Assembly (NCBI GenBank): GCA_001799695.1
Contig: MGTY01000130.1
Location: 52,504-116,503 of the forward strand
Source: Elusimicrobia bacterium GWA2_69_24
GTDB lineage: Bacteria > Elusimicrobiota > Elusimicrobia > UBA1565
Length of the DNA: 64,000 bases
Reading direction: 5' to 3'
Notes under the pieces: model-generated
Seen by the model: only the letters and a program-made list of their open reading frames with translations
Databases searched by the model: none
What the model was told of the DNA's origin: nothing
Made by a program: the position numbers and the translations under genes
Shown here: positions 4,961-19,769 of the stretch, piece by piece
Layout: every line of letters starts with the position of its first letter
Numbering within the stretch: the first letter of the stretch is position 1

Positions 4961-7591
4961 CGTGGCGCGGTTGAGGGTGATCGTGTCGGAGACGCTCAGC
5001 ACGTTGCCGGCCTGGTCCAGGATCTCGATCTCCACCTGCTTGATGCCGGCGCCGGGCAGGAGGTTCCAGGTCCGGGAGGAGGAGGCTCCCTCATACCCCG
5101 TCCAGGCGTCTCCCAGGTTGCGGTAGCGAACCTTGTCCACACCCGAGATGGCGTCCGCGAAGGTCATGTCCAGGCGCACGGTCGCCGAGGTGGTGTAGGC
5201 TTCGCCGTTGGCGATGAGGATGGACCCGGTGGGGGCGCCCTGGTCCAGGGAGTAGGAGCCGGAGAAGGTGTAGGTGCTGTTGCCCGCCCGGTCCTCCACC
5301 TGCGTGTGCAGGTACCAGGTCCCGGAGACGTATTGGACCCGGTTGACCGTGGCCGCGTTCCCGAAGACGTTGTTGTCCCACACGGACCAGCCTCCCGCCG
5401 GCGTGCCGGAGGAGGCGCTCCATTGGTGCCGCAGGCGGCCCAGCCCGGCCCCGCCGGTGTCCAAGAGCGACATGTCGACCGAGATCTCCGTGTTCCTCCA
5501 GGGGCTGGAGGAGGGCGAGAAGGAGGCCACGCCCGGCCGCAGCTGGTCATAGTAGAAGGGGCCGTAGGCCGCGGTGAAGCTGGGGACGTCGTCGCCGTTG
5601 TAGGAGCGCAGATGCAGGTAGTACTCCCCCGACGAGGAGGGCGAGAGGGGCAGGGTGCCGATGGTCCACTGCGTCTCCGAGCCCGTCCAGGAGTGGGTCG
5701 GCGAGGTCTCCCAAGCGTACCGATAGTACTCCAGGGCCCCCGCGCCGAACCCGGCCAGGTTCGTGAAAGTGAACACCGTCCCCGCCACGTACCAGGTTCC
5801 GGTGGAGCGGTCGCCGGAGGCGCTGGGGACCGCCCCCAGGGTGCGGCGGTTGTCCAGGGCCGAATCCGCGCCTCCGACCGTGTTGTAGGCCCGCACGTAG
5901 CGGGAATACGCCGTATTGGCCGTCAGCCCGGGCTCGATCCAATAGGTCGCGTCCGAGGCCAGCTGCTGGAGCTGGACCCCGATCGAGGTGAAGACGCGCA
6001 GCCCGTCCTCCTGGTACTGTCCGGCGGAATCGTCGGTCCAGCCCCACTGGATCTGGGAGGTGGACACCGCGGTCCCCCCGAATCCGAGGGGCGTCCGGGC
6101 CGCCGAGGTGTAGGTGAGGGTGATGCTGCTCAGGGCCGCCGTGTAGAGGGGGTCGTTCGTCCCCAAGTCCGCCCGGTACTGCTGGTAGCGTCCGGTGAGG
6201 GACTGCCCGAGCACCGCTCCCGAGGAGACCTCCACGAAGGAGGCCAGGAAGACGTCGGTGTCATGCGAGCGCGCGAGGACCTTGAGCGTCGCATCCGCCG
6301 GGACCGTCGCGACCCAATCCAGGCGGTCGAGCCGGCTGCCGTCCGCCGCGAGGTTCAGGATCCGCGAGGTGAACTCGCCCGGGGTATCGTAGCGCCCCTG
6401 CTCGGCCCCGGTCGCCGTGTGCGACGGCTCGGGGCTGGAATACTGTCCGACCAGGAGGGCGTCGTAGTCGTAGTCGCGCAGGTTCGTGGTCCCGGCCCCG
6501 GCCTCGATGTAGATGTACGGGTCGCTGAAGGAGAGGCCCGCCCCGCTGTAGACCTGGCTCCCGTCGTAGACCACCTTGGTGGTGGACGGACCGAGCAGGA
6601 AGTCCACGTCGTGGAACCCGGCCGAGGTGTTGCTGGGGGCGACCAAAGAGAACGGGATGTAGGAGAGGGCCTTCTCCACCTGGTAGGTCGGGGTGGCGGT
6701 CGAGTGGATGATGCGCAGGCGCAGCCACTCCGCCTCCAGGGCCGAGAACGAGGCGCTGGTCGGGCACAGGGTGATGTCCGAGGTCCGATTCGACTCCACC
6801 GTCGAGGCCTTGACGCGGATGTGGTAGCGGCGGCCGCTGGAGAAGTTGTGCTTGCCCACGCTGCGCAGTCCGTAGTAGTCGGCGGCGCTCGCTCCATAGG
6901 TCAGGCGCAGGGCGTCGCCCTGGAGGTTGCGGACCGAGCCCGCCTCCGGCGCGGCGGACTGGATGTTCGACCACTTGCCCGAGTCGGGCGCGGAGCCGTC
7001 CGTGCCGTCGAAGGGGTCGGTGAAGACGAAGGTGTTCGCCGCGCTCGAGACGTCGGAGGCGCCGGAGTTGCCGTAGTACATGTAGAGGGTAACGCTCGAA
7101 TTGGCCGGGATGGAGGGGACCTTCACCCAGATGCGGGTGGCCGTCGTGCTCATCCCCCGCTCCACCCAGTGGTAGATCAGGGTCGTCCCGTCGCTGGTCG
7201 TGAACCGGAGGTCGGCGCCGTCCGAGCGCAGGCGGCCGGCGGAGATCAGGCCCGCCGTGTCGAAAGTCAGCAGGATCTGGTAGTCCGTGAGGGCGGAGCC
7301 GTTGGTCGAATCGAGGGTGATGGTCCGCCGGTGGTTCCAGTCCGCGTCGTACCACGCGGCGCCGCTCGGCGCGCTCAGCCCCACCGCCCGGCCCGCGTAG
7401 TCCAGCCGGACGTCCGCGGCGCCGCCCGAGCCCGAGCGGTAGGTGGTCGCGAAGGTCCCGGCGTCGAAATCCGTATCCGAAGTGTCGGTCTGCGTCCCGG
7501 CGGCCCCGGCGAGGCCCGGCGCGCTGAGGCAGGCCGCGGCCAGGACGAAGCCGCGGACCCTGCTCTGCAGCGCCGGGGGAGTCGGTCTCAT
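1..7591 (-). CDS. Giant secreted cell-surface protein, >2530 aa with its 3' end beyond the window: signal peptide, DUF2341, LamG/concanavalin-like region, FN3-like modules, then about 17 tandem Ig-like repeats
   Basis: Absent from the supplied ORF track (no stop inside the window). The reverse-strand ATG at 7591..7589 gives MRPTPPALQSRVRGFVLAAACLSAPGLAGAAG (signal peptide). Hand translation stays open down to position 2. DUF2341-type signature: WNHRRTITLDSTNGSALTDYQILLTFD...GADLRFTTSDGTTLIYHWVE...IWVKVPSIPANSSVTLYMYYGN. None of the listed minus ORFs in 1..7591 is in this frame. The ATG overlaps the TGA of the upstream regulator (ATGA). Confidence 0.85.
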   Translation of the reverse strand, partial: MRPTPPALQSRVRGFVLAAACLSAPGLAGAAGTQTDTSDTDFDAGTFATTYRSGSGGAADVRLDYAGRAVGLSAPSGAAWYDADWNHRRTITLDSTNGSALTDYQILLTFDTAGLISAGRLRSDGADLRFTTSDGTTLIYHWVERGMSTTATRIWVKVPSIPANSSVTLYMYYGNSGASDVSSAANTFVFTDPFDGTDGSAPDSGKWSNIQSAAPEAGSVRNLQGDALRLTYGASAADYYGLRSVGKHNFSSGRRYHIRVKASTVESNRTSDITLCPTSASFSALEAEWLRLRIIHSTATPTYQVEKALSYIPFSLVAPSNTSAGFHDVDFLLGPSTTKVVYDGSQVYSGAGLSFSDPYIYIEAGAGTTNLRDYDYDALLVGQYSSPEPSHTATGAEQGRYDTPGEFTSRILNLAADGSRLDRLDWVATVPADATLKVLARSHDTDVFLASFVEVSSGAVLGQSLTGRYQQYRADLGTNDPLYTAALSSITLTYTSAARTPLGFGGTAVSTSQIQWGWTDDSAGQYQEDGLRVFTSIGVQLQQLASDATYWIEPGLTANTAYSRYVRAYNTVGGADSALDNRRTLGAVPSASGDRSTGTWYVAGTVFTFTNLAGFGAGALEYYRYAWETSPTHSWTGSETQWTIGTLPLSPSSSGEYYLHLRSYNGDDVPSFTAAYGPFYYDQLRPGVASFSPSSSPWRNTEISVDMSLLDTGGAGLGRLRHQWSASSGTPAGGWSVWDNNVFGNAATVNRVQYVSGTWYLHTQVEDRAGNSTYTFSGSYSLDQGAPTGSILIANGEAYTTSATVRLDMTFADAISGVDKVRYRNLGDAWTGYEGASSSRTWNLLPGAGIKQVEIEILDQAGNVLSVSDTITLNRATTLNLPSVTTPATGETGGQAKTFDAQATLTYSPTGAPLSGATVSFVFRGETKTAATNASGVATVSYAAPATSGSYTLDASFAGNVDYDASSVNNTVTVQQRSTVLIALNTTAFTGSTVTMQVNLVDVETLEDMPGKLITFYFEGSSNTALTDALGMAESTFTAPTNAGNYNYTASYAGGATYRQSQSTKVVTVTKRSTLLIAQNVGTYLLEDFQAKGTLIASADGSPVVGETIHFTYKAASQDGVTDDAGVATTMFNAGSSSGTHTYLAEFSGNAGFSAKSGTGTLTIAMRPVRIQTVAVSTTVGMAFDAQATLTDQLTGDPLWARTVRFVFQGSTQTSVTDGDGIVATAFTAPTASGTYVYSASYDGDFTYATGQATAAVTAVRRNTSIAMPADIRANASTVFTATATLTAEGGAPLAGETLVFSFAGSTKAAVSDALGVATASFVAPGGIGTYPLQSDYAGAVTYAASWGSGTVTVDTRLSVLSGQPVTVRWGDVFTASATLTVSGTGDPIVGRAVSFLFNGGEQSGATSGTGLATVGFTAPNATGPYTFSATFPGDGSFLFQSDTQPVTVQSHTSVMFARDAGVNIGDVFRATVTLSDLHNGAGIQGRTVRFTFQGLTKDAVTDAVGVATAAYDSPASSGTYSYTADFAGDELYLSVSSFSYLGAARRPVNMAALNAAVIAGQVVKTSATLTDQATGSPRAGAGVSFVFNGTTQTVLANGVGVATASFTAPASTGTYGYEARYDGDATYLGQSDFKSVVVSRHPTSLSAKDVTAAVQAEFTVQGTLTSAETGLPLSGRTLRFVFDGSTQTALTNELGVASAAYTTSSSTEVLTYTASFDGELTYDPASDIGEVAIGLRFTAVVPFNATAYALDPFPGTAKLIDRNSGDPIQGERIDFVFLGSTLSANTDVIGIGSVTYAAPPSSGNFTLDANYASNSIYVASAGSSTITIVRRPTSLTAFGNWCYTLSSIGFGSLLLDGATGDRLAASSVTFSFQGASSTAQSDGFGNAGATFACGPSSGSYRLDVDFAGTQTYAPSFSSSTGSVYRRPTQLISYDVLTIAMDTFTARADLRDYVGGGMMPGMSVVFDFLGSTKSVVTDALGVATVTYIAPTTSGTYTYSASYAGDQTYEPANSGVTAVSVYPRPTTAVAYDSWDLALDPVNMRTDIKDSNLGTPVPGLPVIFMMSGSTRSATTNASGQSFATFPAIEAAGYYPWNATFGGNATYAFSSSSAGHTNAFRPTYLAVPNIEANLNTVFTALAMLGDSFTGNPVANKSIRFVFQGSTRTVTANAFGVASATFTAPATIGYYPIYAYFDSGDITYNPSSNSGQLTAVTRFSVMLVSDQDVDAGSSFTTVAQVKDAIAGTPVAGATVTFAFQGSSITAFANAQGVSSATFTAPFSTGTYLYTAAFPGDDTFSASNGTATIRVILRPTSVMVSNIDVRAGDGFWALARLQETATGAAVVGRSILFSFQGTTRTAVTDGVGVASVTFTAPVSTGTYTYLALFGGDTLYDTRSDTGTVNVTRRLSALTAENVLTAISDGWVAKATLNDAANGGTLAGRTVSLIFSGSTKTVTTDALGVATASFTAPASSGSYYYTALFDGDPLYEPAADNAALEVARRPTNLLASDILAKIGDTFYARGVLKDSLTGAL

Positions 7592-7989
7592 TGCATCCTG
7601 TGGCTCTTCTGCGCCTTCAACACGGCCGCGCGCGCCCGGGCCATGAGGATGGGCGGCGACACGGGCTTCAGGAGATAGTCGTCGGCGCCGAGGTCCAGAC
7701 CCTCGACTTTGCTCTCCGTCGACATCATCGTCCCCGTCAGCATGATGACGGGGATGAGCCTCAGGACGGGGTCCTGGCGGAGGGACTGCAGCACTTCGAA
7801 TCCGTTCGGGCTCAGCTCCCCGAGGTTGAAATCCAGGATGATGACGTCCGGCCGGCGGGCCTGGGCCTCCGCCACTCCCGCCTCCCCGCTGCTGGCCGAG
7901 AAGAACTCCCACTGCGGGTCGATCTCCACGATCTTCTTCATCACGCGGCTGAGATTCGCGTCGTCGTCGACCATCAGCATGCGATACAT
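7588..7989 (-). CDS. CheY-like single-domain response regulator (canonical receiver)
   Basis: MYRMLMVDDDANLSRVMKK...PDVIILDFNL...VIMLTG...DDYLLKP: acidic pocket DD, phospho-Asp, Thr and Lys are all present. Start moved to the internal ATG at 7989. Its stop overlaps the start of the giant CDS. Confidence 0.85.
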   Translation of the reverse strand: MYRMLMVDDDANLSRVMKKIVEIDPQWEFFSASSGEAGVAEAQARRPDVIILDFNLGELSPNGFEVLQSLRQDPVLRLIPVIMLTGTMMSTESKVEGLDLGADDYLLKPVSPPILMARARAAVLKAQKSHRMQ

Positions 7990-8079
7990 GGCACGGGCTC
8001 CTGGACTCCGCCTGCTACCAAGGAAAGTATAGGCCGCATTTCGCCTTCCCATTGTAAAGAAGTTGTAAAAAAACGCTGT

Positions 8080-8763
8080 TCAGCGCACGGTCGTCAGCTT
8101 GTAGCCGAGCGGCCGTACCGTATCGATCCGGCAAGACGAGGGAGAGAGTTTCCTGCGCAGATGCGACACGTGCATGTCGATGGAGCGCGTGCGGAACTGG
8201 TCATCCGTGTCCCACAGATACCGCAGCAGATAGCGCCGCGGCAGGGTCCGTCCGGCCTTCTGGATGAACAGGTGCAGGAGCTGATATTCCGTCCGCGTCA
8301 AGGTCTCTTCCCGGTCCCCGATCCGGATGCGGCGGTTCTCCGCGTCCAAGGAGATGTCCTGGAACACGAACTGCCCCCCGCCCCGCCCCAGGACGATCCG
8401 GCGCAGGATGGCGCGCACGCGGGCGCGCAGCTCCGCGTCGGGGATGGTGAGGGAGAGGAGCTCGTCGGTCCCCCGCTCGAAGGCGGCGAGGGTGGCCTGA
8501 TCGTCGAGCTCGGCGGCGATGGACACCACGAAGAGGGTGTTGAGGGTATCCGTCTTGCGGACGTGGTCCAGCAGCTCGTACTCGCGCCCATCGGCGGAGC
8601 CCAGCTCCAGGACCACCAGGTCGGGCCGCTCCCGGCGCCGCAGCACGGACTTCGCGGCCGGGACGCCGGGGGCGGTCCGGATGTCCGCCCCCAATTCCAG
8701 CAGCGCGCGCCGCAGCCGCTCCTGGAAGGGCCGCCGCCCGACCACGAGGATGCGCGGGCCCAT
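8080..8763 (-). CDS. OmpR/PhoB-family winged-helix response regulator with a degenerate receiver domain
   Basis: C-terminal Trans_reg_C-like region: LTRTEYQLLHLFIQKAGRTLPRRYLLRYLWD...SIDMHVSHLRRKL...IDTVRPLGYKL. Receiver positions are altered: ILVVGRRP (DD to GR), LVVLELG (Asp to Glu), DELLSLTIP (Lys to Leu). Confidence 0.85.
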   Translation of the reverse strand: MGPRILVVGRRPFQERLRRALLELGADIRTAPGVPAAKSVLRRRERPDLVVLELGSADGREYELLDHVRKTDTLNTLFVVSIAAELDDQATLAAFERGTDELLSLTIPDAELRARVRAILRRIVLGRGGGQFVFQDISLDAENRRIRIGDREETLTRTEYQLLHLFIQKAGRTLPRRYLLRYLWDTDDQFRTRSIDMHVSHLRRKLSPSSCRIDTVRPLGYKLTTVR

Positions 8764-8765
8764 TA

Positions 8766-9034: not shown

Positions 9035-9039
9035 TTGCA

Positions 9040-10479
9040 TCAGGAGCTCTCGACCCGGGTGTTGGGAAGGGTGAAATGGAAGGTGCTGCCGCGGCTCGCG
9101 GTGCTCTCGGCCCAGATGCGGCCGTGATGCGCCTCCACGACCTCCTTGCAGAAGGCCAGCCCGATGCCGCTGCCGCGGATGCGCTCCCCCGGGGCCTTCT
9201 TGTCCGCGACCTGGAAGAAGCGGCCGAAGAGCTTCGGGAGCTGGTCCTCGGGGATGCCGATCCCGGTGTCGCGGATAGTCACGTGCACCGCGCCGGACTC
9301 CACCCCGGCGCCCAGGTGGATGCTCCCCCCCTCCGGCGTGAACTTGAGGGCGTTGAGCACGAGGTTGCCGATGACTTCGGAGACCAGGTTCCGGTCGCAG
9401 AAGGCCTCCACGGGGTCCGCGGGCATCTGCACGAAGAGGCGGACGCTCTTCTCCTCCACCACCCGCTCGAAGAGCTGCCGGGTCTCCTCGCACAGGGCCC
9501 CGACGTCCGTCTTCTCGAATTTGAAGTTCATGCGCCCGGCGCGGATCCGTTCCAGGTCCAGCAGGTTGTTGACGAACCGGGTGAGCTCCTTGACCCCCAG
9601 GTCGATGATGCGGATGTCCTCCTGGATCGTCTCCGGCACCTGGTGCGAGAGCTGATGCGCGTGATAGGCGGCGCCGGTGATCGCCGACAGGGGCGAACGC
9701 ATGTTGTGGGAGACGCTCTGCAGGAAGCGGTCCTTGAGTTCGTCGACCTCCTTGAGCTGGCGCGCCATGCGGTTGAGGTCCCCGGCCAGCGTCCCCAACT
9801 CGTCCTTGCGCTGCACGGGGATGTCCGCGTCGAACTTGCCCACGCCGATCTGCCGGGCGGCCTCGCTCAGGGCGCGGATGGGCCGGGTGAGGTTGGACGC
9901 GAAGAAGAAGGACACCAGGAGGCTCAAGGCCAGGCACACCCCTCCCACGGCGAAGAGCTCCTTGAGGGTGGCCTTGAGCGTCGCGGCCAGCTCCCGGTCG
10001 ATGACGCCCCGGTTGTAGCGCACCACCGTGGAGCCGAAGCGCTTGCCCTCGCTCCAGACCGGGACGGCCATCAGCAGGACCTTCTTGCCGTCCTGCACGA
10101 CCGGCTCCGCGCGGATGCCCTCCGCCCGGTTCGCCCGCTCCACGAACGGGTCCCGCTTGGGGGACACGACCTTCGAGTAGTCCTTCTTGAGGAAATCGGA
10201 GTGGATATGGACGCGCCCGTCCAGGTCCCAGAGGGCGACGTCCAGGACCTCATCCGACTTCATCCAGGAATCGAGGTAGGCGAGGAGGATGCGCTCCTCC
10301 CGGGCGTCCAGGGTGGACTCGCTGATGCGGGCCAGCTTCTCGAGGGCGCTGGTGCGCTCGTGCGCCATGCGCTCGGTCAGGTTGATCCGCTCGCGGATGT
10401 AGACCGCCGTCAGGGTGGCGCCGACCACGACCGACACCATGAGCATGGTCAGGAGGCTGAGGCGGGTGCGCAGGCTCAC
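9040..10479 (-). CDS. Sensor histidine kinase (TM, periplasmic sensor, TM, HAMP, HisKA, HATPase_c)
   Basis: H-box FLQSVSHNMRSPLSAI, N-box NLVLNALKFTPEGG, G-boxes IRDTGIGIPED and GSGIGLAFCKEVV, HAMP-like RPIRALSEAARQIG...DELGTLAGDLNRMARQL. Start set at GTG 10479 (VSLRTRLSLL..). The track start at 10536 is a TTG, so the start is uncertain. Confidence 0.85.
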   Translation of the reverse strand: MSLRTRLSLLTMLMVSVVVGATLTAVYIRERINLTERMAHERTSALEKLARISESTLDAREERILLAYLDSWMKSDEVLDVALWDLDGRVHIHSDFLKKDYSKVVSPKRDPFVERANRAEGIRAEPVVQDGKKVLLMAVPVWSEGKRFGSTVVRYNRGVIDRELAATLKATLKELFAVGGVCLALSLLVSFFFASNLTRPIRALSEAARQIGVGKFDADIPVQRKDELGTLAGDLNRMARQLKEVDELKDRFLQSVSHNMRSPLSAITGAAYHAHQLSHQVPETIQEDIRIIDLGVKELTRFVNNLLDLERIRAGRMNFKFEKTDVGALCEETRQLFERVVEEKSVRLFVQMPADPVEAFCDRNLVSEVIGNLVLNALKFTPEGGSIHLGAGVESGAVHVTIRDTGIGIPEDQLPKLFGRFFQVADKKAPGERIRGSGIGLAFCKEVVEAHHGRIWAESTASRGSTFHFTLPNTRVESS

Positions 10480-10544
10480 GCGAGAAGTATACCCGTCAGT
10501 GCGCCCTCTCGCCAGGGGTGCTTTTAGGTGATACAATTACCGGG

Positions 10545-11315
10545 ATGCTCAAGCGCGCCGCCCTTATCCTGCTGTCGGCCCTCCTGTCCGGCTGCTTCGG
10601 CAGCCAGACCTCGACCCTGGTCCAGCCTTCCCAGGAGCTGGAAGGGACCCGCCGTATCGCCGTGCTCCCCTTCCGGGCGCAATACGGGGACGGGCAGGCC
10701 ATGGGCGACGCCTTCGTCACGGAGTTCATGTCGGCCGGGTTCCTCGTTGTCGAACGCGGGCTGCTCGAAGGCGTCTTCCGCTCCCTCTCCCTCGATTTCG
10801 AAACCGGCGCCCTCCGCCCGGAGGAGCTGGTCAGCGTGGCCAAGTCGGCGAAGGTCGACGCGGTCATCTTCGGGACCCTCCAGGCGGAATCCGAGAAGGT
10901 CGGTGGGGACCTCCTCTCGGTCTCCCTGCGCATGGTGAGCGCGCAGAGCGGGGAGATCCTCCTGAGCTCCACCTACCGCAACGAGAAGCTTCTGCCGGCC
11001 AACCAGATCCCCGGCGCCATGATGAAGGACATCCAGAAACAGCTGGATTCCTATCACGCCAAGCTCGCCCAGGACCGGCGCCGGGCCGAGAAGGCGCGCA
11101 AGAAGGCGGAAGCCGCGGCGGCCAAGGCCAAGAAGGCCGAGGAAGCCCGGCTCAAGAAGGAAGCCGCCCGGGCGGCGGAAGCCGCCAGAGCCAAGAAGGC
11201 CGAGGAAGCCCGGCTCAAGAAGGCCGCGGAAGAAGCCGTCGAAGCGGCCAAGAAGGCGGGCGCCGCGCCGGAGACCCCGCCCCCCGCGCCCAAGGCCGGC
11301 AAGAAAGCCAAGTAG
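10545..11315 (+). CDS. Lipoprotein with an LpoB/CsgG-like N-terminal domain and a Lys/Ala/Glu-rich repeat tail
   Basis: Lipobox in MLKRAALILLSALLSGC. IAVLPFRAQYGDGQAMGDAFVTEFMSAGFLVVER...VDAVIFGTLQ resembles LpoB/CsgG-type lipoproteins. The tail is AKKAEEARLKK repeats. Start moved to the ATG at 10545. Confidence 0.7.
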   Translation: MLKRAALILLSALLSGCFGSQTSTLVQPSQELEGTRRIAVLPFRAQYGDGQAMGDAFVTEFMSAGFLVVERGLLEGVFRSLSLDFETGALRPEELVSVAKSAKVDAVIFGTLQAESEKVGGDLLSVSLRMVSAQSGEILLSSTYRNEKLLPANQIPGAMMKDIQKQLDSYHAKLAQDRRRAEKARKKAEAAAAKAKKAEEARLKKEAARAAEAARAKKAEEARLKKAAEEAVEAAKKAGAAPETPPPAPKAGKKAK

Positions 11316-13278: not shown

Positions 13279-13304
13279 ATGCCGGCGGCACAAGGATAAT
13301 ACCA

Positions 13305-14078
13305 ATGGACTTCATGACTTTGATCGGTCTGGTCGCCGGCCTGGCGATGTACTCCTGGGGGGTCTACGAGGGGGGCTCCGTCAAAGCCTTCCTCAACTCC
13401 CACGGCATCGGCCTCGTGGTCGGCGGCACCCTCTTCTCCACGATGATCATCTGCTCGGGCCGGGAATTCGTGGGCGCGATGCGCGCCGCCGTGGTCCTGA
13501 TCCTCTCCCCGCGCAACCTCGCACTCGACCCGGCCATAGACCTCCTGGCCGGGCTGGGCAAGAAGGCGCGGCAGAGCGGGATCGACTCCCTGGAGCCGGA
13601 CGCCCGCGGCGTGCGCGATGACGGCTTCTTCCTGCGCACCTACCACACCTGCCTGACCAGCCCGGATGAGATCATGGCCCGCAACGTCATCGAGCGCGAG
13701 ATCATACAGACCGGGATGCGCCATAAGGAGATGGGCAACGTGTTCAAGACCCTCGGGATGATCTCCCCCATGATGGGACTGATGGGGACCGTCATCGGCA
13801 TCGTCGGCGTGCTGCGCAACATCTCCGACCCCCAGATGGTCGGCGCCTCCATGGGCGTCGCCATGTCCACCGCTTTCTACGGGATCCTGCTCTCCGGCTT
13901 CATCTTCACCCCCCTAAGCGGCAAGCTCCGCCTGCGCAGCAACTCCGAGCTCCTGGTCAAGGAGACCATCATGGAGGGCCTGCTGGCGATCCGCTTCACC
14001 AACGCGCCCCCCAAGGTCCTGGAGCGCCAGCTCTTATCCTACCTGACCGCCCGCTCCATCGCCTCCCGGGGGAAATAG
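13305..14078 (+). CDS. motA: MotA/TolQ/ExbB-family proton channel, MotA/PomA-like stator subunit (257 aa)
   Basis: Four-TM layout. Conserved C-terminal channel region GMISPMMGLMGTVIGIVGVL...AMSTAFYGILLSGFIFTPLSGKLR. Followed 7 nt downstream by a MotB-like gene. Confidence 0.85.
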   Translation: MDFMTLIGLVAGLAMYSWGVYEGGSVKAFLNSHGIGLVVGGTLFSTMIICSGREFVGAMRAAVVLILSPRNLALDPAIDLLAGLGKKARQSGIDSLEPDARGVRDDGFFLRTYHTCLTSPDEIMARNVIEREIIQTGMRHKEMGNVFKTLGMISPMMGLMGTVIGIVGVLRNISDPQMVGASMGVAMSTAFYGILLSGFIFTPLSGKLRLRSNSELLVKETIMEGLLAIRFTNAPPKVLERQLLSYLTARSIASRGK

Positions 14079-14084
14079 CGCGCC

Positions 14085-14801
14085 ATGCTGGCCAAACACG
14101 GCGAAGAGGAAGGGGAGAGCGCGGTATGGGCCATCACCTACGGCGACCTCATGAGCTTCCTCATGATCTTCTTCCTGTTCCTATACGCCTTCGCGGTCCA
14201 GGACGACCAGAAGAAGCAGGAGTTGGCGGAGGTCATGCAGGAGACCCTGGGGGACAAGAAGGCCAAGGACCCCAAACCCCAGCTTCCCCTCGAGGTCCAG
14301 GCCGCCGAGGCCCTCAAGGACCGCTTCGAGGATTCCAAACTCACCGCCGTCGCGGAAGTCGAGACGGACAAGCTTTTCGTGAGGATCACCCTCAAGGAGA
14401 AGGTGCTCTTCAAGTCCGGCCGGGCGGAGCTGCTCCCCGAGGCCGCCGCCGTCATCCACCAGTTCGCCCTGGTGGGCAAGGGACTCGACAACGACATCAT
14501 GATCGAGGGCCACACCGACAACGTCCGGCCCGGGAAGCACCTGCCCTACAAGACCAACTGGGAGCTCTCCTTCGCGCGCGCCCACTCCATCGTGAAATAC
14601 CTCGTGGACCAGGAAGACTTCTCTCCGGCGCGCCTGGCCGCCGTGGGCTACGGAGAGTTCCGGCCCCTGGCCCCTAACGACTCCCCCGAGCAGCGGGCGC
14701 TGAACCGGCGCATCCAGATCACCATCATCCGCAAACCCGCCTGGGCCCCCGTGCCGCCCAAGCCCGCCCCCGCCCCGGCGCCGATCCCGGCGCACCACTG
14801 A
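14085..14801 (+). CDS. motB: MotB-like stator subunit with an OmpA-type peptidoglycan-binding domain
   Basis: N-terminal plug/TM with the invariant Asp: WAITYGDLMSFLMIFFLFLYAF. OmpA-like domain: IEGHTDNVRPG...NWELSFARAHSIVKYLV...ARLAAVGYGEFRPLAPNDSPEQRALNRRIQI. Confidence 0.85.
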   Translation: MLAKHGEEEGESAVWAITYGDLMSFLMIFFLFLYAFAVQDDQKKQELAEVMQETLGDKKAKDPKPQLPLEVQAAEALKDRFEDSKLTAVAEVETDKLFVRITLKEKVLFKSGRAELLPEAAAVIHQFALVGKGLDNDIMIEGHTDNVRPGKHLPYKTNWELSFARAHSIVKYLVDQEDFSPARLAAVGYGEFRPLAPNDSPEQRALNRRIQITIIRKPAWAPVPPKPAPAPAPIPAHH

Positions 14802-14814
14802 GAAGGTCTCGGGC

Positions 14815-16254
14815 TCAATTAGCGACGGCTTGCGTCTGGAGCGATTCGGCCGCGGGAGCGCGCAGGGTGAGGAGCCCCGCGGTCTTGAGGCGTTCGACCA
14901 CGTCCACGATGCGGATGAACTCCTCGTCCGCGGCCTCCGGCGGGACCGGAGGCATGAAGCTGATCTGCTCGCGCAGGATGTCGGCGAACTCGGGGCTGAG
15001 GCGCTCGCAGACGCGGTCGGTGAGGCCGGGCGAACTGGCCTTGAGGAAGCGCGCGAAGGACTGCAGGCTGAGTTCGCGGAAGATGCGCAGGAAGGACCGG
15101 TCGTCGAAATCGAAGAGGTCCTCGAACTCCAGGAGGTTGTCCCGGAGATGCTGGGCCAACTCGGGGTCGGAGGCCTCCACCGCCGCGATGAGCGCGGAGC
15201 GGACGCCGGAATCGGTCCGCTGTATGATCTGGCACATCTTGCGCACGCCTCCGAAGCTGAAGCCCAGCTTGCGGCGGATCTGCTTCTCGATGAGCCGGAT
15301 GGACTCCGGGTTCCCGTACTTCACGCTGCGGCACTGCAGGAGGATGTCGCGGCGCTTCTCCGGGGTGAAGAGCGCGAAGGCCTTGGCCGCCACCGGCCGG
15401 GGCAGACACTCCAGCACGCTGGCGATGAGGAGTTCACCCTCCTTGGCCAGGGCCTGCGTCAGTCCGGAGATGTTGTCCTCGTTGATGAAGTCGAAAAGCG
15501 GTTCCTCGTCGGGGGACGTCGGCTTCATCCCCCCCGCCGGGCCCGCGGCAGCCGCCTCGCCCGCGCCGGCGGCCGGTCCGGCGCTGGCCGCGAACGCCGC
15601 CATCTCGGCCGCGGCCGGGGCCGCCTTCTTGGACAGCGCGTCCACCAGGTTGTCGAAAAAGCGCCGCAGGGGTCCGAAGAGGAAATAGGAGGCTATCAGG
15701 GCCGCGATGAGCAGCACCGCCGTGGCGGCCATCCCCACGTAGGCCATCAGGCTCTGCGGGGCGCTCTGGGTGCGGGCGCTGAAGGTCTTGATCTGGAGGG
15801 AATCCCCCTTGGCCGGGATGATCTCGAGGATCTGCGAGGCGACCTGCTTCACCTGCTCGGTCCGGGCCGGGTCCAGGGTCTTGCCGATCCAGATCGTGCA
15901 GGTGACGATCTTGCTGGCCCGGGCCACCCGCACCGGCGCGTCGGGCTTCTGGGTCAGGTTCTGGTTGACCGGGACCCCGGGCAGGACGTACTCCACGGCG
16001 GCCTTGCCGAAGCGCTCCTCCAGCTCCTTGCGCGTCTCCTCGAGGACCAGCGAGACGTTGACCACGGGGATGATCTCGGATATGCCCAGGTAGGCGGACA
16101 GGGCGTCCCGGAGGCGGTTCTCCAGGTTCCGCTCCAGGTCGGCCTGATGCACCTGTACCTCGGGGGAGAGCGAGGCCGCGCCGAACGACGCGCCGGCGAA
16201 GGCGCCGCCGAGGACTGCGGCCAGCAGAAGCGCGGAAATGGGCTTTGGTTTCAT
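14815..16254 (-). CDS. Membrane-anchored FliF(ring-building-motif)-like / TM / FliG middle plus C-terminal-like fusion protein
   Basis: Signal-like MKPKPISALLLAAVLGGAFAGASFG. Periplasmic segment LENRLRDALSAYLGISEIIPVVNVSLVLEE (FliF/YscJ-like). TM LMAYVGMAATAVLLIAALIASYFLF. FliG_M-like LIASVLECLPRPVAAKAFALFTPEKRRDILLQ. FliG_C-like FDFDDRSFLRIFRELSLQSFARFLKASSPGLTDRVCERLSPEFADILREQ...IVDVVERLKTAGLL. Confidence 0.7.
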   Translation of the reverse strand: MKPKPISALLLAAVLGGAFAGASFGAASLSPEVQVHQADLERNLENRLRDALSAYLGISEIIPVVNVSLVLEETRKELEERFGKAAVEYVLPGVPVNQNLTQKPDAPVRVARASKIVTCTIWIGKTLDPARTEQVKQVASQILEIIPAKGDSLQIKTFSARTQSAPQSLMAYVGMAATAVLLIAALIASYFLFGPLRRFFDNLVDALSKKAAPAAAEMAAFAASAGPAAGAGEAAAAGPAGGMKPTSPDEEPLFDFINEDNISGLTQALAKEGELLIASVLECLPRPVAAKAFALFTPEKRRDILLQCRSVKYGNPESIRLIEKQIRRKLGFSFGGVRKMCQIIQRTDSGVRSALIAAVEASDPELAQHLRDNLLEFEDLFDFDDRSFLRIFRELSLQSFARFLKASSPGLTDRVCERLSPEFADILREQISFMPPVPPEAADEEFIRIVDVVERLKTAGLLTLRAPAAESLQTQAVAN

Positions 16255-16345
16255 GCTCGGTGGTCCCGCCTAGATTATAGGTAAGTATGTGCGGCTCTTG
16301 TTGCCAAGATATTGACCGACCTGCGGCGGCTTCCTGTCGGCTTCC

Positions 16346-16374
16346 TTGAAAGGAAGGAGTCCTTCTGTTACAAT
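16346..16374 (+). promoter_or_regulatory. Possible sigma70-type promoter TTGAAA-N17-TACAAT giving a near-leaderless mRNA
   Basis: TTGAAA at 16346..16351, 17-nt spacer, TACAAT at 16369..16374. The ATG of the signal-peptide start (MPRNVFSAWSAAAALSLALAAPLAAQ) is at 16382, 8 nt after the -10 element. Confidence 0.35.
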
Positions 16375-16381
16375 CCAGAGT

Positions 16382-17332
16382 ATGCCTCGAAACGTCTTCT
16401 CAGCGTGGTCTGCGGCGGCCGCTCTGTCCTTGGCGCTGGCCGCGCCGCTCGCGGCGCAGCCCGCGCCGTCCCCTGAAGCGGCCCTCGCGGCGGCGCTCCA
16501 GGACCTGCGCAGCCCGGACCTGGCGGCCCGCCGGCAGGCGGTCAGCCAGCTCGGGGTCCTGCGCCGGCCCGAGTCCATACCCCCGCTCCGCGCCGCCCTG
16601 TCCGATGAGAGCCCCCTCGTCCGGACCGCGGTGCTGAACGTGCTGGGCCTCCTGCGGGCCGCGGAAGCCGCGCCGGACATGGCCCGCCTGGCGACCGCGG
16701 ATCCGGACGAGGTCGTGCGCCAGCAGGCGGCCGTCGCGCTGGGCTACGCCGGGGGCGCCGCCTCCGTCGACGCGCTCCTCTCCGCCCTCGACGACCCCGC
16801 GGCCGGGGTGCGCTCCGCCGCCGTCCGGTCTCTGGGCGCGCTCGCCTCGGACCGGGCCACGCCCAAGCTGAAAGCCCTGCTCTCCGACCCCGACCCGGGG
16901 GTACGGCGCGCGGCGGTGTCGTCTTTGGGCCGCGTCGCCTCCACTTCCGCGGTCTCGGGTCTGGGCGCGGCCCTGGCGGACCCGGACCCGGCCCTCCGCC
17001 TCGAGGCGGTCAAAGCCCTGGGCGCGGCGCGGTCGTCAGACGTCCGTGCCCTCCTGAAGCCCCTGCTCCAGGACCCCGACCCCTTCGTCCGCCTCAACGC
17101 GGTCTCGGCTCTCGGCCGGCGCGGGGACCGCTCCGGGGAGGCCGCCGCGATCGGGCTCCTCGGCAGCGCGGATCCGCAAGTCCGCCGACAGGCGGCCGAT
17201 TCCGTGTCGCTGGTGGGCTCCGCCGCCTCGGGACCGGGGGCCTTGCAGGCCGCCCTGGCCCGGGAGAAGGACCCGGAAGTGAAGGCCGCGCTCCAAGCCG
17301 CGTTCGAGCGGCTGCGCGCAAAGACCCGGTGA
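16382..17332 (+). CDS. Secreted HEAT-repeat (PBS-lyase-type) protein
   Basis: Signal peptide, then about 8 repeats of the type D.D..VR..A..ALG.....A...L...L.D (e.g. DPDPGVRRAAVSSLGRV, DPDPALRLEAVKALGAA, DPDPFVRLNAVSALGRR). Start moved to the ATG at 16382. Confidence 0.75.
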   Translation: MPRNVFSAWSAAAALSLALAAPLAAQPAPSPEAALAAALQDLRSPDLAARRQAVSQLGVLRRPESIPPLRAALSDESPLVRTAVLNVLGLLRAAEAAPDMARLATADPDEVVRQQAAVALGYAGGAASVDALLSALDDPAAGVRSAAVRSLGALASDRATPKLKALLSDPDPGVRRAAVSSLGRVASTSAVSGLGAALADPDPALRLEAVKALGAARSSDVRALLKPLLQDPDPFVRLNAVSALGRRGDRSGEAAAIGLLGSADPQVRRQAADSVSLVGSAASGPGALQAALAREKDPEVKAALQAAFERLRAKTR

Positions 17333-18441
17333 TGCTCCCCGGCGCCCTCCTGGGGGCGGCCGTCGCCGTATTCCTCCTTTGGCAGCTTGGGAAGTTCGGC
17401 TGGCGCCGCTACGCCGCCGCCCGCGAGGAAGTCTACCAGCCCATCATCCTCATGGCGATCGCCATGGAGATGATGCGCAGGCTCGGCCCGCCCTTCTCGG
17501 AGGGACGCCGGCTCGGGGACTGGACGATCGTGGAGGACGCGGTCGTCAAATGGAGCAAGGGCCTGCGGGGCTACGCGCGCAAGGCCTTCTGCGACATCTT
17601 CGAACAGAACGGTTTCGGCGAGTACGAAGCCCGGCGGCTCCACAGCCTGAGCCGCGGCGCCCGCGCAGAGGCCGCGCGCCGGCTGGGTCAGATGCTGGCG
17701 TTCAAGGCCGCGCCGGACCTGCTCCAAGCGCTCGAAGACCCCTGCGCGGAAGTGCGGCGCACGGCGTCCTGGGCCCTGGCCAACATGAGCCAGTGCGACG
17801 AAGCCCTCCGGCTCGCCACCACGGGCAAGCCCCGCATCTGCAAGGACGAGGACCTCGGCCGCAACGGCGCCGTCTCGGGCCGCTTCTATTGGGACGACGG
17901 CGAGCCGGTCATCGGCTGCGTCGGGGGCAACGTGCAGAGCATGGGCTCTTTGGGCAGCGAATCCCCGCGGGCGCCCTACGAGGATTCCGGCTACCGGCTC
18001 AACGGCGTCAGCGCCGGGGCCCCGGCCGCCCTGCGCGCCAAGCTTCGGCAGTTCGTGGGGGATTACAGCGTCGTGGTGTACCGCACCCGGGAGAATGTGC
18101 TCGTCCGTATGGGCTACATCACCGAGCACATCGATTTCGTCTTCCCGAAGTACCTGAGCCCGGACGACCGGATCTCCATCATGGGTAAGCTCGTGGTGCC
18201 CGCTCCCCCGAAAGAGGACCCCGCGCGCAACCGCATTCCCGAGGCCTGGGTCTCCATCCACTCCCGGGACGCCAGCTTCGGCATGGAGTACCGCTCCTGC
18301 GAAGCCGTCTCGTCCTACCGCCTGCACGACGTCCCGCCCGGCGACTATCACATCCGGGCCGCCTTCGGGGAATACTCCTACGAAGCGCCCCTGAAAGTCT
18401 CCCAGACCCAGCCGATGGTGCTCGACCTTACTTTGAAGTAG
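17329..18441 (+). CDS. N-terminally membrane-anchored protein with a HEAT-like segment and a C-terminal beta-sandwich-like domain
   Basis: TM ALLGAAVAVFLLWQLG. HEAT-like RAEAARRLGQMLAFKAAPDLLQALEDPCAEVRRTASWALANM. C-terminus YRLHDVPPGDYHIRAAFGEYSYEAPLKV resembles carboxypeptidase-regulatory-like folds. Its GTG/ATG start overlaps the upstream TGA. Confidence 0.7.
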   Translation: MMLPGALLGAAVAVFLLWQLGKFGWRRYAAAREEVYQPIILMAIAMEMMRRLGPPFSEGRRLGDWTIVEDAVVKWSKGLRGYARKAFCDIFEQNGFGEYEARRLHSLSRGARAEAARRLGQMLAFKAAPDLLQALEDPCAEVRRTASWALANMSQCDEALRLATTGKPRICKDEDLGRNGAVSGRFYWDDGEPVIGCVGGNVQSMGSLGSESPRAPYEDSGYRLNGVSAGAPAALRAKLRQFVGDYSVVVYRTRENVLVRMGYITEHIDFVFPKYLSPDDRISIMGKLVVPAPPKEDPARNRIPEAWVSIHSRDASFGMEYRSCEAVSSYRLHDVPPGDYHIRAAFGEYSYEAPLKVSQTQPMVLDLTLK

Positions 18442-19726: not shown

Positions 19727-19769
19727 GCCTACAAGTACGATCGACCCGCCGGAAAGTTCCCTGAATTGT

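What the first reader, a model, noticed from the sequence alone, without database searches (positions are those of the whole stretch)
7588..18441. Orphan MotA/MotB stator in a non-flagellar envelope locus with a DUF2341 giant protein: candidate new PMF-driven surface machine
Within 18 kb the window holds:
- a histidine kinase, a degenerate OmpR-type regulator and a CheY-like regulator, the last coupled to the giant DUF2341/LamG/Ig protein;
- a divergent operon of LpoB/CsgG-like lipoprotein, TMTC-like TPR membrane protein, MotA and MotB;
- a convergent membrane-anchored FliF/FliG-like protein;
- secreted and membrane-anchored HEAT-repeat proteins.
No other flagellar component (fliM/N, flhA/B, rod, hook, flagellin) and no Tol-Pal or TonB partner occurs anywhere in the 64 kb. 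From memory of the Pfam PF10102 description, DUF2341 occurs fused to some MotA/TolQ/ExbB channel proteins. That gives an independent domain-level link between the giant protein and a stator. The inference is that a MotAB-type proton motor, a rotor-like FliG surrogate and a CheY-type switch act on a very large surface protein, for example in gliding, surface remodelling or adhesin deployment. I know of no characterised system with this composition.
Basis: partly seen in the sequence, partly recalled or inferred. Interest (0 to 1): 0.75.

Follow-up and report, generated by a model that had tools for sequence, protein, structure and literature searches.

The report
Flagellum-free MotAB–FliF/FliG mini-motor locus
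A groundwater Elusimicrobiota-type bacterium carries a flagellar-type proton motor (MotA/MotB plus one protein that fuses a piece of the flagellar MS-ring to FliG) with no other flagellar gene nearby, repeatedly found next to giant surface proteins, so it is probably an uncharacterised envelope machine built from flagellar motor parts.

Summary
MotA and MotB are flagellar-type stator proteins: PomA 4e-34 against ExbB 1e-3, with the plug, the OmpA domain and the R90, E98, P173, P222 and D32 equivalents all kept.

The "FliG-like" protein is more specific than stated. It has a periplasmic FliF RBM3/collar-like domain, one membrane helix, a disordered linker, then FliG middle and C domains. It lacks FliG_N and the FliM-binding EHPQR motif.

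An exhaustive profile search finds 271 cluster representatives at E<=1e-30. Named members and both GTDB species genomes are Elusimicrobiota. In nine further distinct loci the gene lies beside MotA/MotB, beside a giant Ig-repeat protein, or beside HK/REC genes, and never beside other flagellar genes.

Relatives add a PorV-like barrel-TPR protein and T9SS-like C-terminal domains, all below curated cut-offs.

The HEAT proteins and the TMTC-like gene are not conserved, and the DUF2341 argument is weak.

Best reading: a non-flagellar rotary motor coupled to the cell surface. Its output (gliding, secretion or deployment) is unknown, and the absence of a flagellum genome-wide could not be tested.

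The parts
14815..16254 (-). Candidate rotor subunit: N-terminal hydrophobic segment (signal peptide or TM1), periplasmic FliF RBM3/collar-like domain (about aa 31-157, invariant LPGVP and GD motifs), membrane helix (aa 168-193), disordered Ala/Gly linker (aa 210-250), then FliG_M and FliG_C. No FliG_N.
   Evidence: Pfam FliG_C 6.8e-19 and FliG_M 7.8e-7. PDB sequence hit to T. maritima FliG-MC, 1e-21. AF2 model with alpha-beta-beta-alpha-beta periplasmic topology. Foldseek hits to the FliF RBM3/collar (9.5e-4 and weaker, TM-score 0.43-0.49), SpoIIIAG, PrgK and EscJ. hhalign to E. coli FliF 374-437, E=1.4e-4. Family member P0161 passes the Pfam YscJ_FliF_C cut-off.
13305..14078 (+). MotA, flagellar-type stator A subunit
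   Evidence: Pfam MotA_ExbB 6e-19. PDB: PomA 3.8e-34, C. sporogenes MotA 7.5e-33, ExbB only 1e-3. Equivalents of E. coli R90, E98, E150, P173 and P222 are kept.
14085..14801 (+). MotB, stator B subunit with plug and OmpA-type peptidoglycan-binding domain
   Evidence: Pfam MotB_plug 1.7e-14 and OmpA 7.5e-17. PDB: C. sporogenes MotB 1e-35, PomB 7e-26. The Asp32 equivalent is kept. The gene starts 6 nt after the motA stop.
10545..11315 (+). Lipoprotein (lipobox LLSGC) with a GNA1162/FlgT-N/TolB-N/PelC/LpoB-like fold and a Lys/Ala/Glu-rich tail. First gene of the motAB operon.
   Evidence: Weak Pfam FlgO hit, 2e-3. AF2 plus Foldseek: GNA1162 1.4e-6, FlgT 5.4e-6, PelC, LpoB, CsgG. Homologue lies next to motAB in L003/L007 and L006 at 46-50% identity.
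11315..13252 (+). Multi-pass membrane protein with C-terminal TPR repeats (GT-C/PMT_2/TMTC-like, sub-threshold). Specific to this locus, so an accessory part.
   Evidence: TPR families up to 7e-40; PMT_2 at 23.4 bits, below the 26.1 cut-off. Several hydrophobic segments. No counterpart in related loci.
9040..10536 (-). Sensor histidine kinase (two TM helices, HAMP, HisKA, HATPase_c), divergent from the lipoprotein-motAB operon. The true start is probably near 10479.
   Evidence: Pfam. 55%-identical orthologue in the same position in L006. HK genes also flank distant family members in L012 and L013.
8080..8763 (-). OmpR-type DNA-binding regulator with a degenerate receiver (acidic pocket and phospho-acceptor Asp replaced)
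   Evidence: Trans_reg_C 1.6e-20; Response_reg only 20.4 bits. Residues read from the translation. Partial orthologue in L006.
7588..8052 (-). CheY-like single-domain receiver with all phospho-acceptor residues. Its stop codon overlaps the start codon of the giant gene.
   Evidence: Response_reg 6.7e-21. ATGA overlap. A REC-only gene follows the HK next to a distant family member in L013.
2..7591 (-). Giant secreted protein (more than 2530 aa, C-terminus outside the window): signal peptide, DUF2341, at least 11 Big_3_5 Ig-like domains, Invasin_D3
   Evidence: Pfam. Third-position G+C of 0.91 on the minus strand. 33-36% identity over more than 1200 aa to the giant proteins next to FliG-like genes in L001, L004 and L010.
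16346..17332 (+). Secreted HEAT-repeat protein. A neighbour, not shown to belong to the system.
   Evidence: HEAT_2 2e-70. N-terminal hydrophobic segment. No counterpart in related loci.
17329..18441 (+). Membrane-anchored protein with weak HEAT repeats and an unassigned C-terminal domain. A neighbour, not shown to belong to the system.
   Evidence: HEAT_2 at 26.7 bits, just below the cut-off. N-terminal TM helix. No counterpart in related loci.

Best explanation
The locus encodes a non-flagellar, ion-driven rotary motor assembled from flagellar motor parts.

Shown:
- MotA and MotB are of the flagellar stator class. They keep the ion-binding Asp, the plug, the peptidoglycan anchor and the charged residues that push on FliG.
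- The convergent gene encodes a single polypeptide that joins the last periplasmic ring-building domain of the MS-ring protein FliF (RBM3/collar-like) and its following membrane helix directly to the FliG middle and C-terminal (torque-helix) domains.
- This gene family travels with motAB, with HK/REC genes and with giant Ig-repeat surface proteins. It is never seen with export-apparatus, rod, hook, filament or FliM/FliN genes.

Inferred:
- The fusion protein oligomerises into an MS-ring-like ring in the inner membrane, with a FliG ring beneath it.
- Peptidoglycan-anchored MotA5B2 units turn that ring using the ion gradient.
- The histidine kinase phosphorylates the CheY-like receiver, which modulates the motor or its expression. 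The degenerate OmpR-type protein handles transcription.
- The periplasmic face of the ring passes work to envelope partners: the FlgT/PelC-fold lipoprotein here, and a PorV-like outer-membrane barrel with a periplasmic TPR domain in relatives. That work moves, secretes or deploys the giant DUF2341/Ig-repeat protein at the cell surface. This is functionally analogous to GldLM/T9SS driving the SprB adhesin, but with a flagellar-type rotor.

My rough sub-probabilities:
- Stator and fusion protein form a working pair independent of a flagellum: about 0.8.
- The pair is functionally tied to the giant protein: about 0.65.
- The output is surface motility rather than secretion or anchoring: about 0.3.
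For: 1. Stator class. MotA matches PomA at 3.8e-34 and ExbB at 1e-3. MotB matches flagellar MotB at 1e-35, with the plug and OmpA domains. The R90, E98, E150, P173, P222 and D32 equivalents are kept.

2. Rotor, cytoplasmic part. FliG_M and FliG_C are present. Across 40 diverse members the Gly-Gly hinge is kept in 39, K264 in 28, and an acidic residue at D288/D289 is common.

3. Rotor, periplasmic part. The AF2 topology is alpha-beta-beta-alpha-beta with an insertion. Foldseek hits the FliF RBM3/collar, SpoIIIAG, PrgK and EscJ. hhalign aligns it to FliF 374-437, including the RGDSL motif. Pfam YscJ_FliF_C is above its cut-off in family member P0161.

4. Not a canonical FliG. There is no FliG_N, and the EHPQR FliM-binding motif is lost. 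NCBIfam fliG scores 97.5 bits against a cut-off of 226.7.

5. Family size. 271 representatives at E<=1e-30, and most of the 150 listed hits match along nearly the whole profile.

6. Conserved neighbourhood:
- L001/L002: giant DUF2341 protein (7963 aa), barrel-TPR, FliG-like, MotA, MotB, MotB, beta-propeller.
- L006: the same layout as the window, including HK and OmpR.
- L003/L007 and L011: FliG-like convergent with motAB.
- L012: FliG-like, MotA, MotB, MotB, HK.
- L013: TPR, FliG-like, HK, REC.
- L004, L010, L014/L015: giant protein, barrel-TPR, FliG-like and beta-propeller, with overlapping genes.

7. No other flagellar, Tol or Ton genes in the 64 kb.

8. Literature. Most free-living Elusimicrobiota lack flagellar structural genes yet carry motAB and fliG homologues of 'unclear' role (bioRxiv 10.1101/2022.07.08.499144). 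Rotor proteins without a filament occur in 11% of non-motile species (PMC12199754).
Against: - There is no experimental evidence for assembly, rotation or any phenotype.
- Ring formation was not modelled, because only a monomer could be predicted. The collar insertion has pLDDT below 50.
- FliG charges R281 and R297 are not conserved.
- In the window the giant gene and the motor genes lie in different, divergent and convergent, transcription units.
- L004 and L010 show no motAB on contigs of 12-14 kb.
- The T9SS-like assignments in relatives (Por_Secre_tail, PorV/PorP, PorZ C-terminal domain) are all below curated cut-offs. A PDB profile search found only the TPR part.
- The window lacks the barrel-TPR and beta-propeller genes. 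They may lie beyond its left end.
- The absence of a flagellum in this genome was not tested.
Confidence: 0.6

Rival explanations
1. The rotor-stator core is the same, but its job is to energise secretion or attachment of proteins bearing a C-terminal sorting domain across the outer membrane. This would be a T9SS-like pathway with a flagellar-type motor replacing PorLM/GldLM. It would not move an adhesin for motility.
For: In relatives the giant protein and the beta-propeller protein end in domains resembling the T9SS type A C-terminal domain: Por_Secre_tail at 19.6 and 22.3 bits against a cut-off of 23, and the PorZ C-terminal domain at 8e-11. The gene before the FliG-like gene resembles PorV/PorQ/PorP barrels (2e-11) and carries a TPR domain. 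That barrel-TPR gene stays next to FliG-like genes even at 22-35% identity.
Against: All these hits are below curated thresholds. No Sov/SprA, PorK or PorN was seen in any locus. The reviews returned by my search describe T9SS as confined to Bacteroidota/FCB, and none of the listed papers mentions Elusimicrobiota. The C-terminus of the window's giant protein is not visible.
Confidence: 0.25
2. The motor and the giant protein are merely neighbours. The MotAB/FliF-FliG module drives something else, or acts as an ion-gradient-dependent envelope sensor or anchor. The giant adhesin is an independent target of the two-component system.
For: In the window the giant gene belongs to the HK-OmpR-CheY transcription direction, not to the motAB operon. 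L003/L007 pairs the motor with a different giant protein (Big_7 and GH10). L012 and L013 show no giant gene within the contig. Giant surface proteins are common in these genomes.
Against: Four distinct loci (L001/L002, L004, L010, L014/L015) place a homologous giant protein, 33-36% identical where compared, in the same codirectional cluster as the FliG-like gene. Three of them have 4-nt gene overlaps.
Confidence: 0.12
3. These are spare or divergent parts of a genuine flagellum encoded elsewhere in the genome: an extra stator set and a FliG paralogue.
For: MotA and MotB are indistinguishable in class from flagellar stators. A few Elusimicrobiota genomes do encode complete flagella. The whole genome could not be inspected.
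Against: The FliG-like protein has no FliG_N for binding the FliF tail and no EHPQR motif for binding FliM. It is itself membrane-anchored through a FliF-like domain. No flagellar gene lies in the 64-kb window or in nine further distinct loci. Most free-living Elusimicrobiota lack flagellar structural genes.
Confidence: 0.06
4. It is a Zorya-type anti-phage system or a Tol-Pal/TonB-type envelope energiser.
For: MotB matches the PADLOC ZorB models at 5e-23, which reflects general MotB homology. OmpA-type anchoring is shared with Pal and TolR-like systems.
Against: MotA has no ZorA match and is 257 aa with no long tail. There is no ZorC/D/E. MotA matches ExbB only at 1e-3. There is no TolA, TolB, Pal, TonB or TonB-dependent receptor in the locus. 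FliG has no place in either system.
Confidence: 0.02

Closest known systems
Bacterial flagellar motor core (MotA5B2/PomAB stator, FliG torque ring, FliF MS-ring)
   Same: The stator is homologous and of the same class: plug, OmpA-type anchor, Asp32, R90 and E98. FliG_M and FliG_C are homologous, with the Gly-Gly hinge and torque helix. The periplasmic domain is homologous or isostructural to FliF RBM3 and is followed by a membrane helix in the same order as in FliF.
   Different: FliF and FliG are one polypeptide. RBM1, RBM2, FliG_N and the FliM-binding motif are absent. No FliM/FliN, export gate, rod, hook or filament genes lie nearby. The neighbours are giant adhesin-like proteins, an outer-membrane barrel-TPR protein and HK/REC genes.
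Bacteroidota gliding/T9SS machinery (GldLM or PorLM 5:2 motor, GldKN ring, SprB giant adhesin with its adjacent PorP-like SprF, PorV shuttle, PorXY two-component control)
   Same: The overall logic matches. An inner-membrane ion-driven 5:2 motor sits next to a giant repetitive surface adhesin, followed by a PorV/PorP-like outer-membrane protein. Cargo carries C-terminal beta-sandwich domains. A two-component system is attached.
   Different: The motor proteins are MotAB, not GldLM. The rotor is FliF/FliG-derived, not GldM/GldKN. No Sov/SprA, PorK or PorN was seen. The T9SS-like matches are sub-threshold and were seen in relatives only. The phylum lies outside the group in which T9SS is described.
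Engineered or natural FliF-FliG fusions (for example PDB 8z4d, a Vibrio FliF-FliG fusion; metagenomic protein P0283 with YscJ_FliF plus FliG_N/M/C)
   Same: A covalent FliF-FliG link is compatible with ring assembly in flagellar systems. This makes a fused rotor subunit plausible.
   Different: Those fusions keep full-length FliF and FliG_N and work inside a flagellum. Here only RBM3 and FliG-MC are kept, and no flagellum genes accompany them.
Orphan motAB/fliG homologues noted in non-flagellated Elusimicrobiota (bioRxiv 10.1101/2022.07.08.499144)
   Same: This is probably the same genes. That survey notes numerous motAB, flbD and fliG homologues despite the absence of flagellar structural genes, and calls their role unclear.
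   Different: That work gives no architecture, neighbourhood or model. The FliF-RBM3 fusion, the link to giant proteins and barrel-TPR genes, and the family size are worked out here.

Membership tests
Flagellar stator MotAB/PomAB (the 'FIT' class of PMC12505986) | A subunit with four TM helices and a cytoplasmic torque-generating interface carrying the R90 and E98 equivalents, plus P173 and P222 | tested here: met
   alignment with E. coli MotA. PomA 3.8e-34, ExbB 1e-3.
Flagellar stator MotAB/PomAB (the 'FIT' class of PMC12505986) | B subunit with the TM Asp32, a plug helix and an OmpA-like peptidoglycan-binding domain | tested here: met
   Pfam MotB_plug 1.7e-14 and OmpA 7.5e-17. D32 kept. 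C. sporogenes MotB 1e-35.
Flagellar stator MotAB/PomAB (the 'FIT' class of PMC12505986) | Works on a flagellar rotor in a flagellated cell | not testable with these tools
   The whole genome is not available. No flagellar structural gene lies in the 64 kb or in the related loci.
FliG (flagellar motor switch protein) | C-terminal domain with a torque helix, and a middle domain joined by a Gly-Gly hinge | tested here: met
   FliG_C 6.8e-19 and FliG_M 7.8e-7. 1lkv at 1e-21. GG kept in 39 of 40 members.
FliG (flagellar motor switch protein) | N-terminal domain that binds the FliF C-terminal tail | tested here: not met
   No FliG_N hit. Residues 1-250 are a periplasmic domain, a TM helix and a linker. 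NCBIfam fliG equivalog scores 97.5 bits against a cut-off of 226.7.
FliG (flagellar motor switch protein) | EHPQR motif for FliM binding, and the full set of charged torque-helix residues (K264, R281, D288, D289, R297) | tested here: not met
   only E125, K264 and an acidic residue at 288/289 are retained. R160, R281 and R297 are lost.
FliF / MS-ring (YscJ_FliF plus YscJ_FliF_C) | RBM3/beta-collar domain followed by TM2 | tested here: met
   Foldseek to the FliF RBM3/collar, E from 9.5e-4 and TM-score 0.43-0.49. hhalign to FliF 374-437, E=1.4e-4, probability 52%. Relative P0161 passes the PF08345 cut-off. The window protein itself gives no Pfam hit.
FliF / MS-ring (YscJ_FliF plus YscJ_FliF_C) | RBM1 and RBM2 domains (PF01514) that house the export gate | tested here: not met
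   The periplasmic region is a single domain of about 130 aa. There is no PF01514 hit.
Type IX secretion / Bacteroidota gliding | GldL/PorL and GldM/PorM motor, PorK/N ring, Sov/SprA translocon | tested here: not met
   None found among the window genes or the genes in related loci.
Type IX secretion / Bacteroidota gliding | Cargo with a type A or B C-terminal domain, and PorV/PorP-family outer-membrane partners | tested here: inconclusive
   Seen in relatives only and below cut-offs: Por_Secre_tail 19.6 and 22.3 bits against 23, PorV_fam 43.9 against 90, PorP 26.6 against 90.55. The C-terminus of the window's giant protein is off-window.
Zorya anti-phage defence | ZorA with a long C-terminal tail, plus ZorC/D or ZorE | tested here: not met
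   PADLOC gives no ZorA, ZorC, ZorD or ZorE hit. Only generic ZorB/MotB similarity is seen.
Tol-Pal / ExbBD-TonB | TolQ/ExbB-type A subunit, a B subunit without a plug, and TolA/TonB transducer partners | tested here: not met
   ExbB at 1e-3 against PomA at 4e-34. A plug is present. No TolA, TolB, Pal or TonB in the 64 kb.

The most novel reading that the evidence does not exclude
This is a previously undescribed class of trans-envelope machine: a minimal flagellar-type rotary motor with no axial structure and no type III export apparatus. It consists of a FliF-RBM3::FliG ring turned by MotAB. Its torque is used at the cell surface to move or deploy giant adhesins through a PorV-like outer-membrane partner. 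If so, it would be a new bacterial motility or secretion mechanism. It would also be a living example of a stand-alone rotor-stator module, either a stripped-down descendant of the flagellar motor or a model for a pre-flagellar stage.
Probability: 0.35. Interest if true: 0.92.

Novelty: new variant of a known kind. Interest (0 to 1): 0.8.

Why it matters
Flagellar stators and FliG are textbook flagellum-only parts. [quoted passage not shown]" (PMC12199754).

This locus gives that question a concrete object. It is a compact gene set of a fused FliF-RBM3/FliG rotor subunit and a MotAB stator. In relatives an outer-membrane barrel-TPR protein joins it, and a two-component system and giant surface proteins recur beside it. 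It recurs in at least a few hundred sequence clusters.

If it rotates, it shows that the stator-rotor core can work without a type III export apparatus, rod or filament. That bears on models of flagellar origin and loss. It could also explain how non-flagellated Elusimicrobiota, including magnetotactic ones whose motility is unexplained, move or handle giant adhesins.

The rotor-stator core is only three genes, small enough for heterologous expression, cryo-EM and multimer modelling.

Tried and rejected
- **Plus-strand ORFs at 968-1963 and 2666-7678.** Rejected as antisense shadows of the giant gene (third-position G+C 0.54-0.58 against 0.91).
- **Finding the end of the window's giant protein and its downstream gene.** An exact look-up of the CheY protein found nothing on record. 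A homology search with the DUF2341 N-terminus returned only proteins of 785 aa or less, and not the window's own. The question stays unresolved.
- **DUF2341 as a specific link to stators.** None of the 120 listed hits carries PF01618, so I treat it as weak.
- **Genome-contig scan with the family profile.** Only two GTDB species were found, because of narrow peptide patterns. The exhaustive HMMER search showed the family is far larger.
- **Second k-mer homology search with a 40-member profile.** It added only P0282 and P0283.
- **PDB profile search with the barrel-TPR proteins.** It gave only TPR hits.
- **Zorya, Tol-Pal and TonB readings.** Rejected.
- **HEAT proteins and the TMTC-like gene as core parts.** Not conserved.
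- **Per-genome flagellar gene tables in the supplement of the Elusimicrobiota paper.** Not held as text.
- **Literature searches for a described FliG-based non-flagellar motor.** None found.

Full report
**Gene map.** The window is about 68% G+C, so most long ORFs are shadows. I picked genes by third-position G+C above 0.85.
- The minus strand carries a histidine kinase (10536..9040), an OmpR-type regulator (8763..8080), a REC-only CheY-like protein (8052..7588) and a giant gene. The giant gene starts at 7591 and runs off the left end of the window (more than 2530 aa).
- The plus strand carries a lipoprotein (10545..11315), a multi-pass TPR membrane protein (11315..13252), MotA (13305..14078) and MotB (14085..14801).
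- A 479-aa gene (16254..14815) converges on motB, with 13 nt between the two stop codons.
- Two HEAT-repeat genes follow (16346..18441).
- Pfam assignments are, and junctions. The giant gene's ATG overlaps the CheY stop codon.
- The translation shows a complete CheY-type phospho-acceptor set in the REC-only protein. In the OmpR-type protein the set is degenerate: GR replaces the acidic pair and Glu replaces the Asp.

The exception is LamG, which was not detected.

**Rest of the window.** Forty further ORFs between 18.6 and 64 kb were scanned. They encode metabolism, transporters, a REC-fused type II/IV secretion ATPase, an R-M pair, c-di-AMP enzymes, PBP1 and proteases. No flagellar, Tol-Pal or TonB gene is among them.

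**The stator.**
- MotA matches solved flagellar stators: PomA 3.8e-34 and Clostridium MotA 7.5e-33. It matches ExbB only at 1e-3.
- MotB matches Clostridium MotB at 1e-35 and PomB at 7e-26, and it has MotB_plug and OmpA domains.
- Aligned with E. coli MotA and MotB taken from MG1655, the window proteins keep R90, E98, E150, P173 and P222, and Asp32.
- In the classification of PMC12505986, a plug, an OmpA-like anchor and a torque interface define flagellar stators, as opposed to Exb/Tol-like generic transporters.
- PADLOC gives no ZorA, ZorC or ZorD hit.

**The "FliG-like" protein.**
- Residues 254-470 are FliG middle and C domains: T. maritima FliG-MC at 1e-21, with high pLDDT in the model.
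- Upstream lie an N-terminal hydrophobic segment, a periplasmic domain (residues 31-157), a membrane helix (168-193) and a disordered Ala/Gly linker.
- The periplasmic domain has alpha-beta-beta-alpha-beta topology, the ring-building-motif pattern. A low-confidence insertion (residues 75-109) carries an invariant LPGVP motif.
- After the FliG hits, Foldseek returns the FliF MS-ring RBM3/beta-collar from many entries (E from 9.5e-4, TM-score 0.43-0.49 on the target). It then returns SpoIIIAG, PrgK and EscJ.
- Profile-sequence alignment places residues 114-164 on E. coli FliF 374-437. That segment includes the RGDSL motif just before FliF's second membrane helix (E=1.4e-4, probability 52%).
- A distant family member, P0161, scores above Pfam's cut-off for YscJ_FliF_C over the whole model.
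- The protein is therefore a natural fusion: FliF(RBM3)-TM-linker-FliG(MC).
- It lacks FliG_N and has lost the EHPQR FliM-binding motif and the R281 and R297 charges. It keeps the Gly-Gly hinge, K264 and an acidic residue at D288/D289, the partner of MotA R90.
- It fails NCBI's fliG equivalog cut-off (97.5 bits against 226.7).

**Family size and taxonomy.**
- The word-indexed search found 16 relatives. Those with names are Elusimicrobiota MAGs.
- A scan of GTDB species genomes found two groundwater Elusimicrobia MAGs. One of them gives its name to family JACRDR01, order UBA1565, whose listed genomes are groundwater MAGs of about 65-69% G+C.
- The exhaustive HMMER search found 7608 proteins at E<=0.001, mostly ordinary FliG. 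Of these, 271 reach E<=1e-30. Most of the 150 listed match nearly the whole profile, including the periplasmic domain, and most are 440-750 aa long.
- Longer members carry a C-terminal TPR extension.

**Neighbourhood conservation.** Nine further distinct loci were examined; L002, L007, L009 and L015 repeat the gene order of L001, L003, L008 and L014.
- L006 (46% identity) repeats the window's layout: FliG-like convergent with lipoprotein-MotA-MotB, and divergent HK-OmpR.
- L003/L007 and L011 have FliG-like convergent with motAB. L003/L007 also has the lipoprotein, and a different giant protein lies nearby.
- L001/L002 (35% identity) has a 7963-aa DUF2341 protein, a 600-aa protein, FliG-like, MotA, MotB, MotB and a beta-propeller protein, all codirectional.
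- L004, L010 and L014/L015 have giant protein, a 612-629-aa protein, FliG-like and beta-propeller, with 4-nt gene overlaps. No motAB lies on those short contigs.
- L012 (22% identity) has FliG-like, MotA, MotB, MotB and HK.
- L013 (24% identity) has TPR, FliG-like, HK and a REC-only gene.
- L008/L009 (a TPR-tailed member) has barrel-TPR, FliG-TPR, an 864-aa protein, FlbD, MotA and MotB.
- The window's giant protein is 33-36% identical over more than 1200 residues to the giants of L001, L004 and L010.
- FlbD in L008/L009 is the only other flagellum-related family in any locus. No export-gate, rod, hook, filament or FliM/FliN gene appears.
- The HEAT genes, the TMTC-like gene and this CheY have no counterparts elsewhere.

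**T9SS-like hints in relatives.**
- The 600-629-aa protein that precedes FliG-like genes has an N-terminal region resembling PorV/PorQ (2e-11) and PorP/SprF (4e-6) outer-membrane barrels. It also has a C-terminal TPR domain.
- The giant proteins and the beta-propeller proteins end in domains resembling the T9SS type A sorting domain or the PorZ C-terminal domain.
- All these scores are below curated cut-offs, and a PDB profile search saw only the TPR part.
- The barrel-TPR gene itself is conserved next to FliG-like genes in L001, L004, L012 and L008.
- These genes are not in the window. By analogy they would lie just beyond the giant gene's 3' end, outside the left edge.

**The lipoprotein.** A single-sequence model (pLDDT 67) matches GNA1162, FlgT, the TolB N-domain, the PelC dodecamer, LpoB and CsgG.

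**The DUF2341 argument.** PMC12505986 confirms that some non-flagellar Exb/Tol-type A subunits carry DUF2341. But 159 relatives of the window's DUF2341 region show many architectures in bacteria and archaea. None of the 120 listed has a MotA_ExbB domain. It is a generic extracellular module, and the stator here is of the other class. The functional link rests on synteny, not on this domain.

**Literature.**
- A survey of Elusimicrobiota genomes states that most free-living members lack flagellar structural genes yet carry motAB, flbD and fliG homologues. It calls their role unclear (10.1101/2022.07.08.499144).
- A tree-wide survey finds rotor proteins without filaments in 11% of non-motile species and raises the possibility of an alternative function (PMC12199754).
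- Four searches found no paper describing this architecture or system.

**Interpretation.** The best-supported reading is a flagellum-independent rotary module.
- The fusion protein would form a ring: RBM3 collar in the periplasm, FliG ring in the cytoplasm.
- Peptidoglycan-anchored MotAB would turn that ring.
- The HK and CheY-like pair would provide control.
- The work would be delivered to envelope partners and a giant surface protein.

The parts, their class, their key residues and their conserved neighbourhood are shown. Ring assembly, rotation, the CheY target and the nature of the output are inferred.

The closest functional analogy is the GldLM/T9SS-SprB gliding apparatus. The closest homology is the flagellar motor core. 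It is not a member of either system, because defining features of each were tested and not met.

The main caveat is that whole-genome absence of a flagellum could not be tested here.

Noticed in passing
window 34892-36559 (+): A type II/IV secretion ATPase (T2SSE, 2e-98) with an N-terminal response-regulator receiver domain. It is followed on the other strand by two TPR proteins (36828-39769) of lower G+C. It may be a phosphorylation-controlled pilus or secretion ATPase.
   Followed up: no
window 39975-41827 (+): A low-G+C island (53% against 68%) carrying a D12-class Dam-like adenine methyltransferase and a type II restriction endonuclease (PADLOC REase_II 1.5e-56). This is probably a horizontally acquired R-M system.
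   Followed up: partly
window 18683-20883 (-): Two genes with atypical codon-position G+C lie right after the HEAT genes. One has a weak HNH motif and the other has no family hit. They may be a mobile or defence insert bounding the locus.
   Followed up: no
L001 12855-13529 (and L012 3543-4824): Distant versions of the system carry two tandem MotB paralogues. In L001 the second has Asn in place of the ion-binding Asp32. This suggests a heteromeric or non-conducting B subunit.
   Followed up: partly
L008/L009 10001-16433 (GCA_001799875.1): A TPR-tailed branch of the same family (669 aa) sits in the order barrel-TPR, FliG-TPR, an 864-aa unknown protein, FlbD, MotA, MotB. FlbD is otherwise a flagellar accessory protein.
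   Followed up: partly
protein P0283 (metagenome, 649 aa): A natural single-polypeptide fusion of YscJ_FliF (RBM1/2) with FliG_N, FliG_M and FliG_C. It differs from the window family and is on a 3.9-kb contig.
   Followed up: no
window 45290-47556 (-): A c-di-AMP synthase (CdaA: DAC and CdaA_N domains) lies next to a DHH/DHHA1 phosphoesterase. This may be a synthase/phosphodiesterase pair.
   Followed up: no
window 8764-9039: A 276-nt gap separates the histidine kinase stop from the OmpR-type gene start. Only a short ORF with no family hit (8773-9015) lies there. It could hold an internal promoter or a small gene.
   Followed up: no
L003/L007 8570-13477: In this relative the motor locus is paired with a different giant protein (Big_7 repeats plus a GH10 xylanase domain) rather than a DUF2341/Big_3_5 protein.
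   Followed up: no
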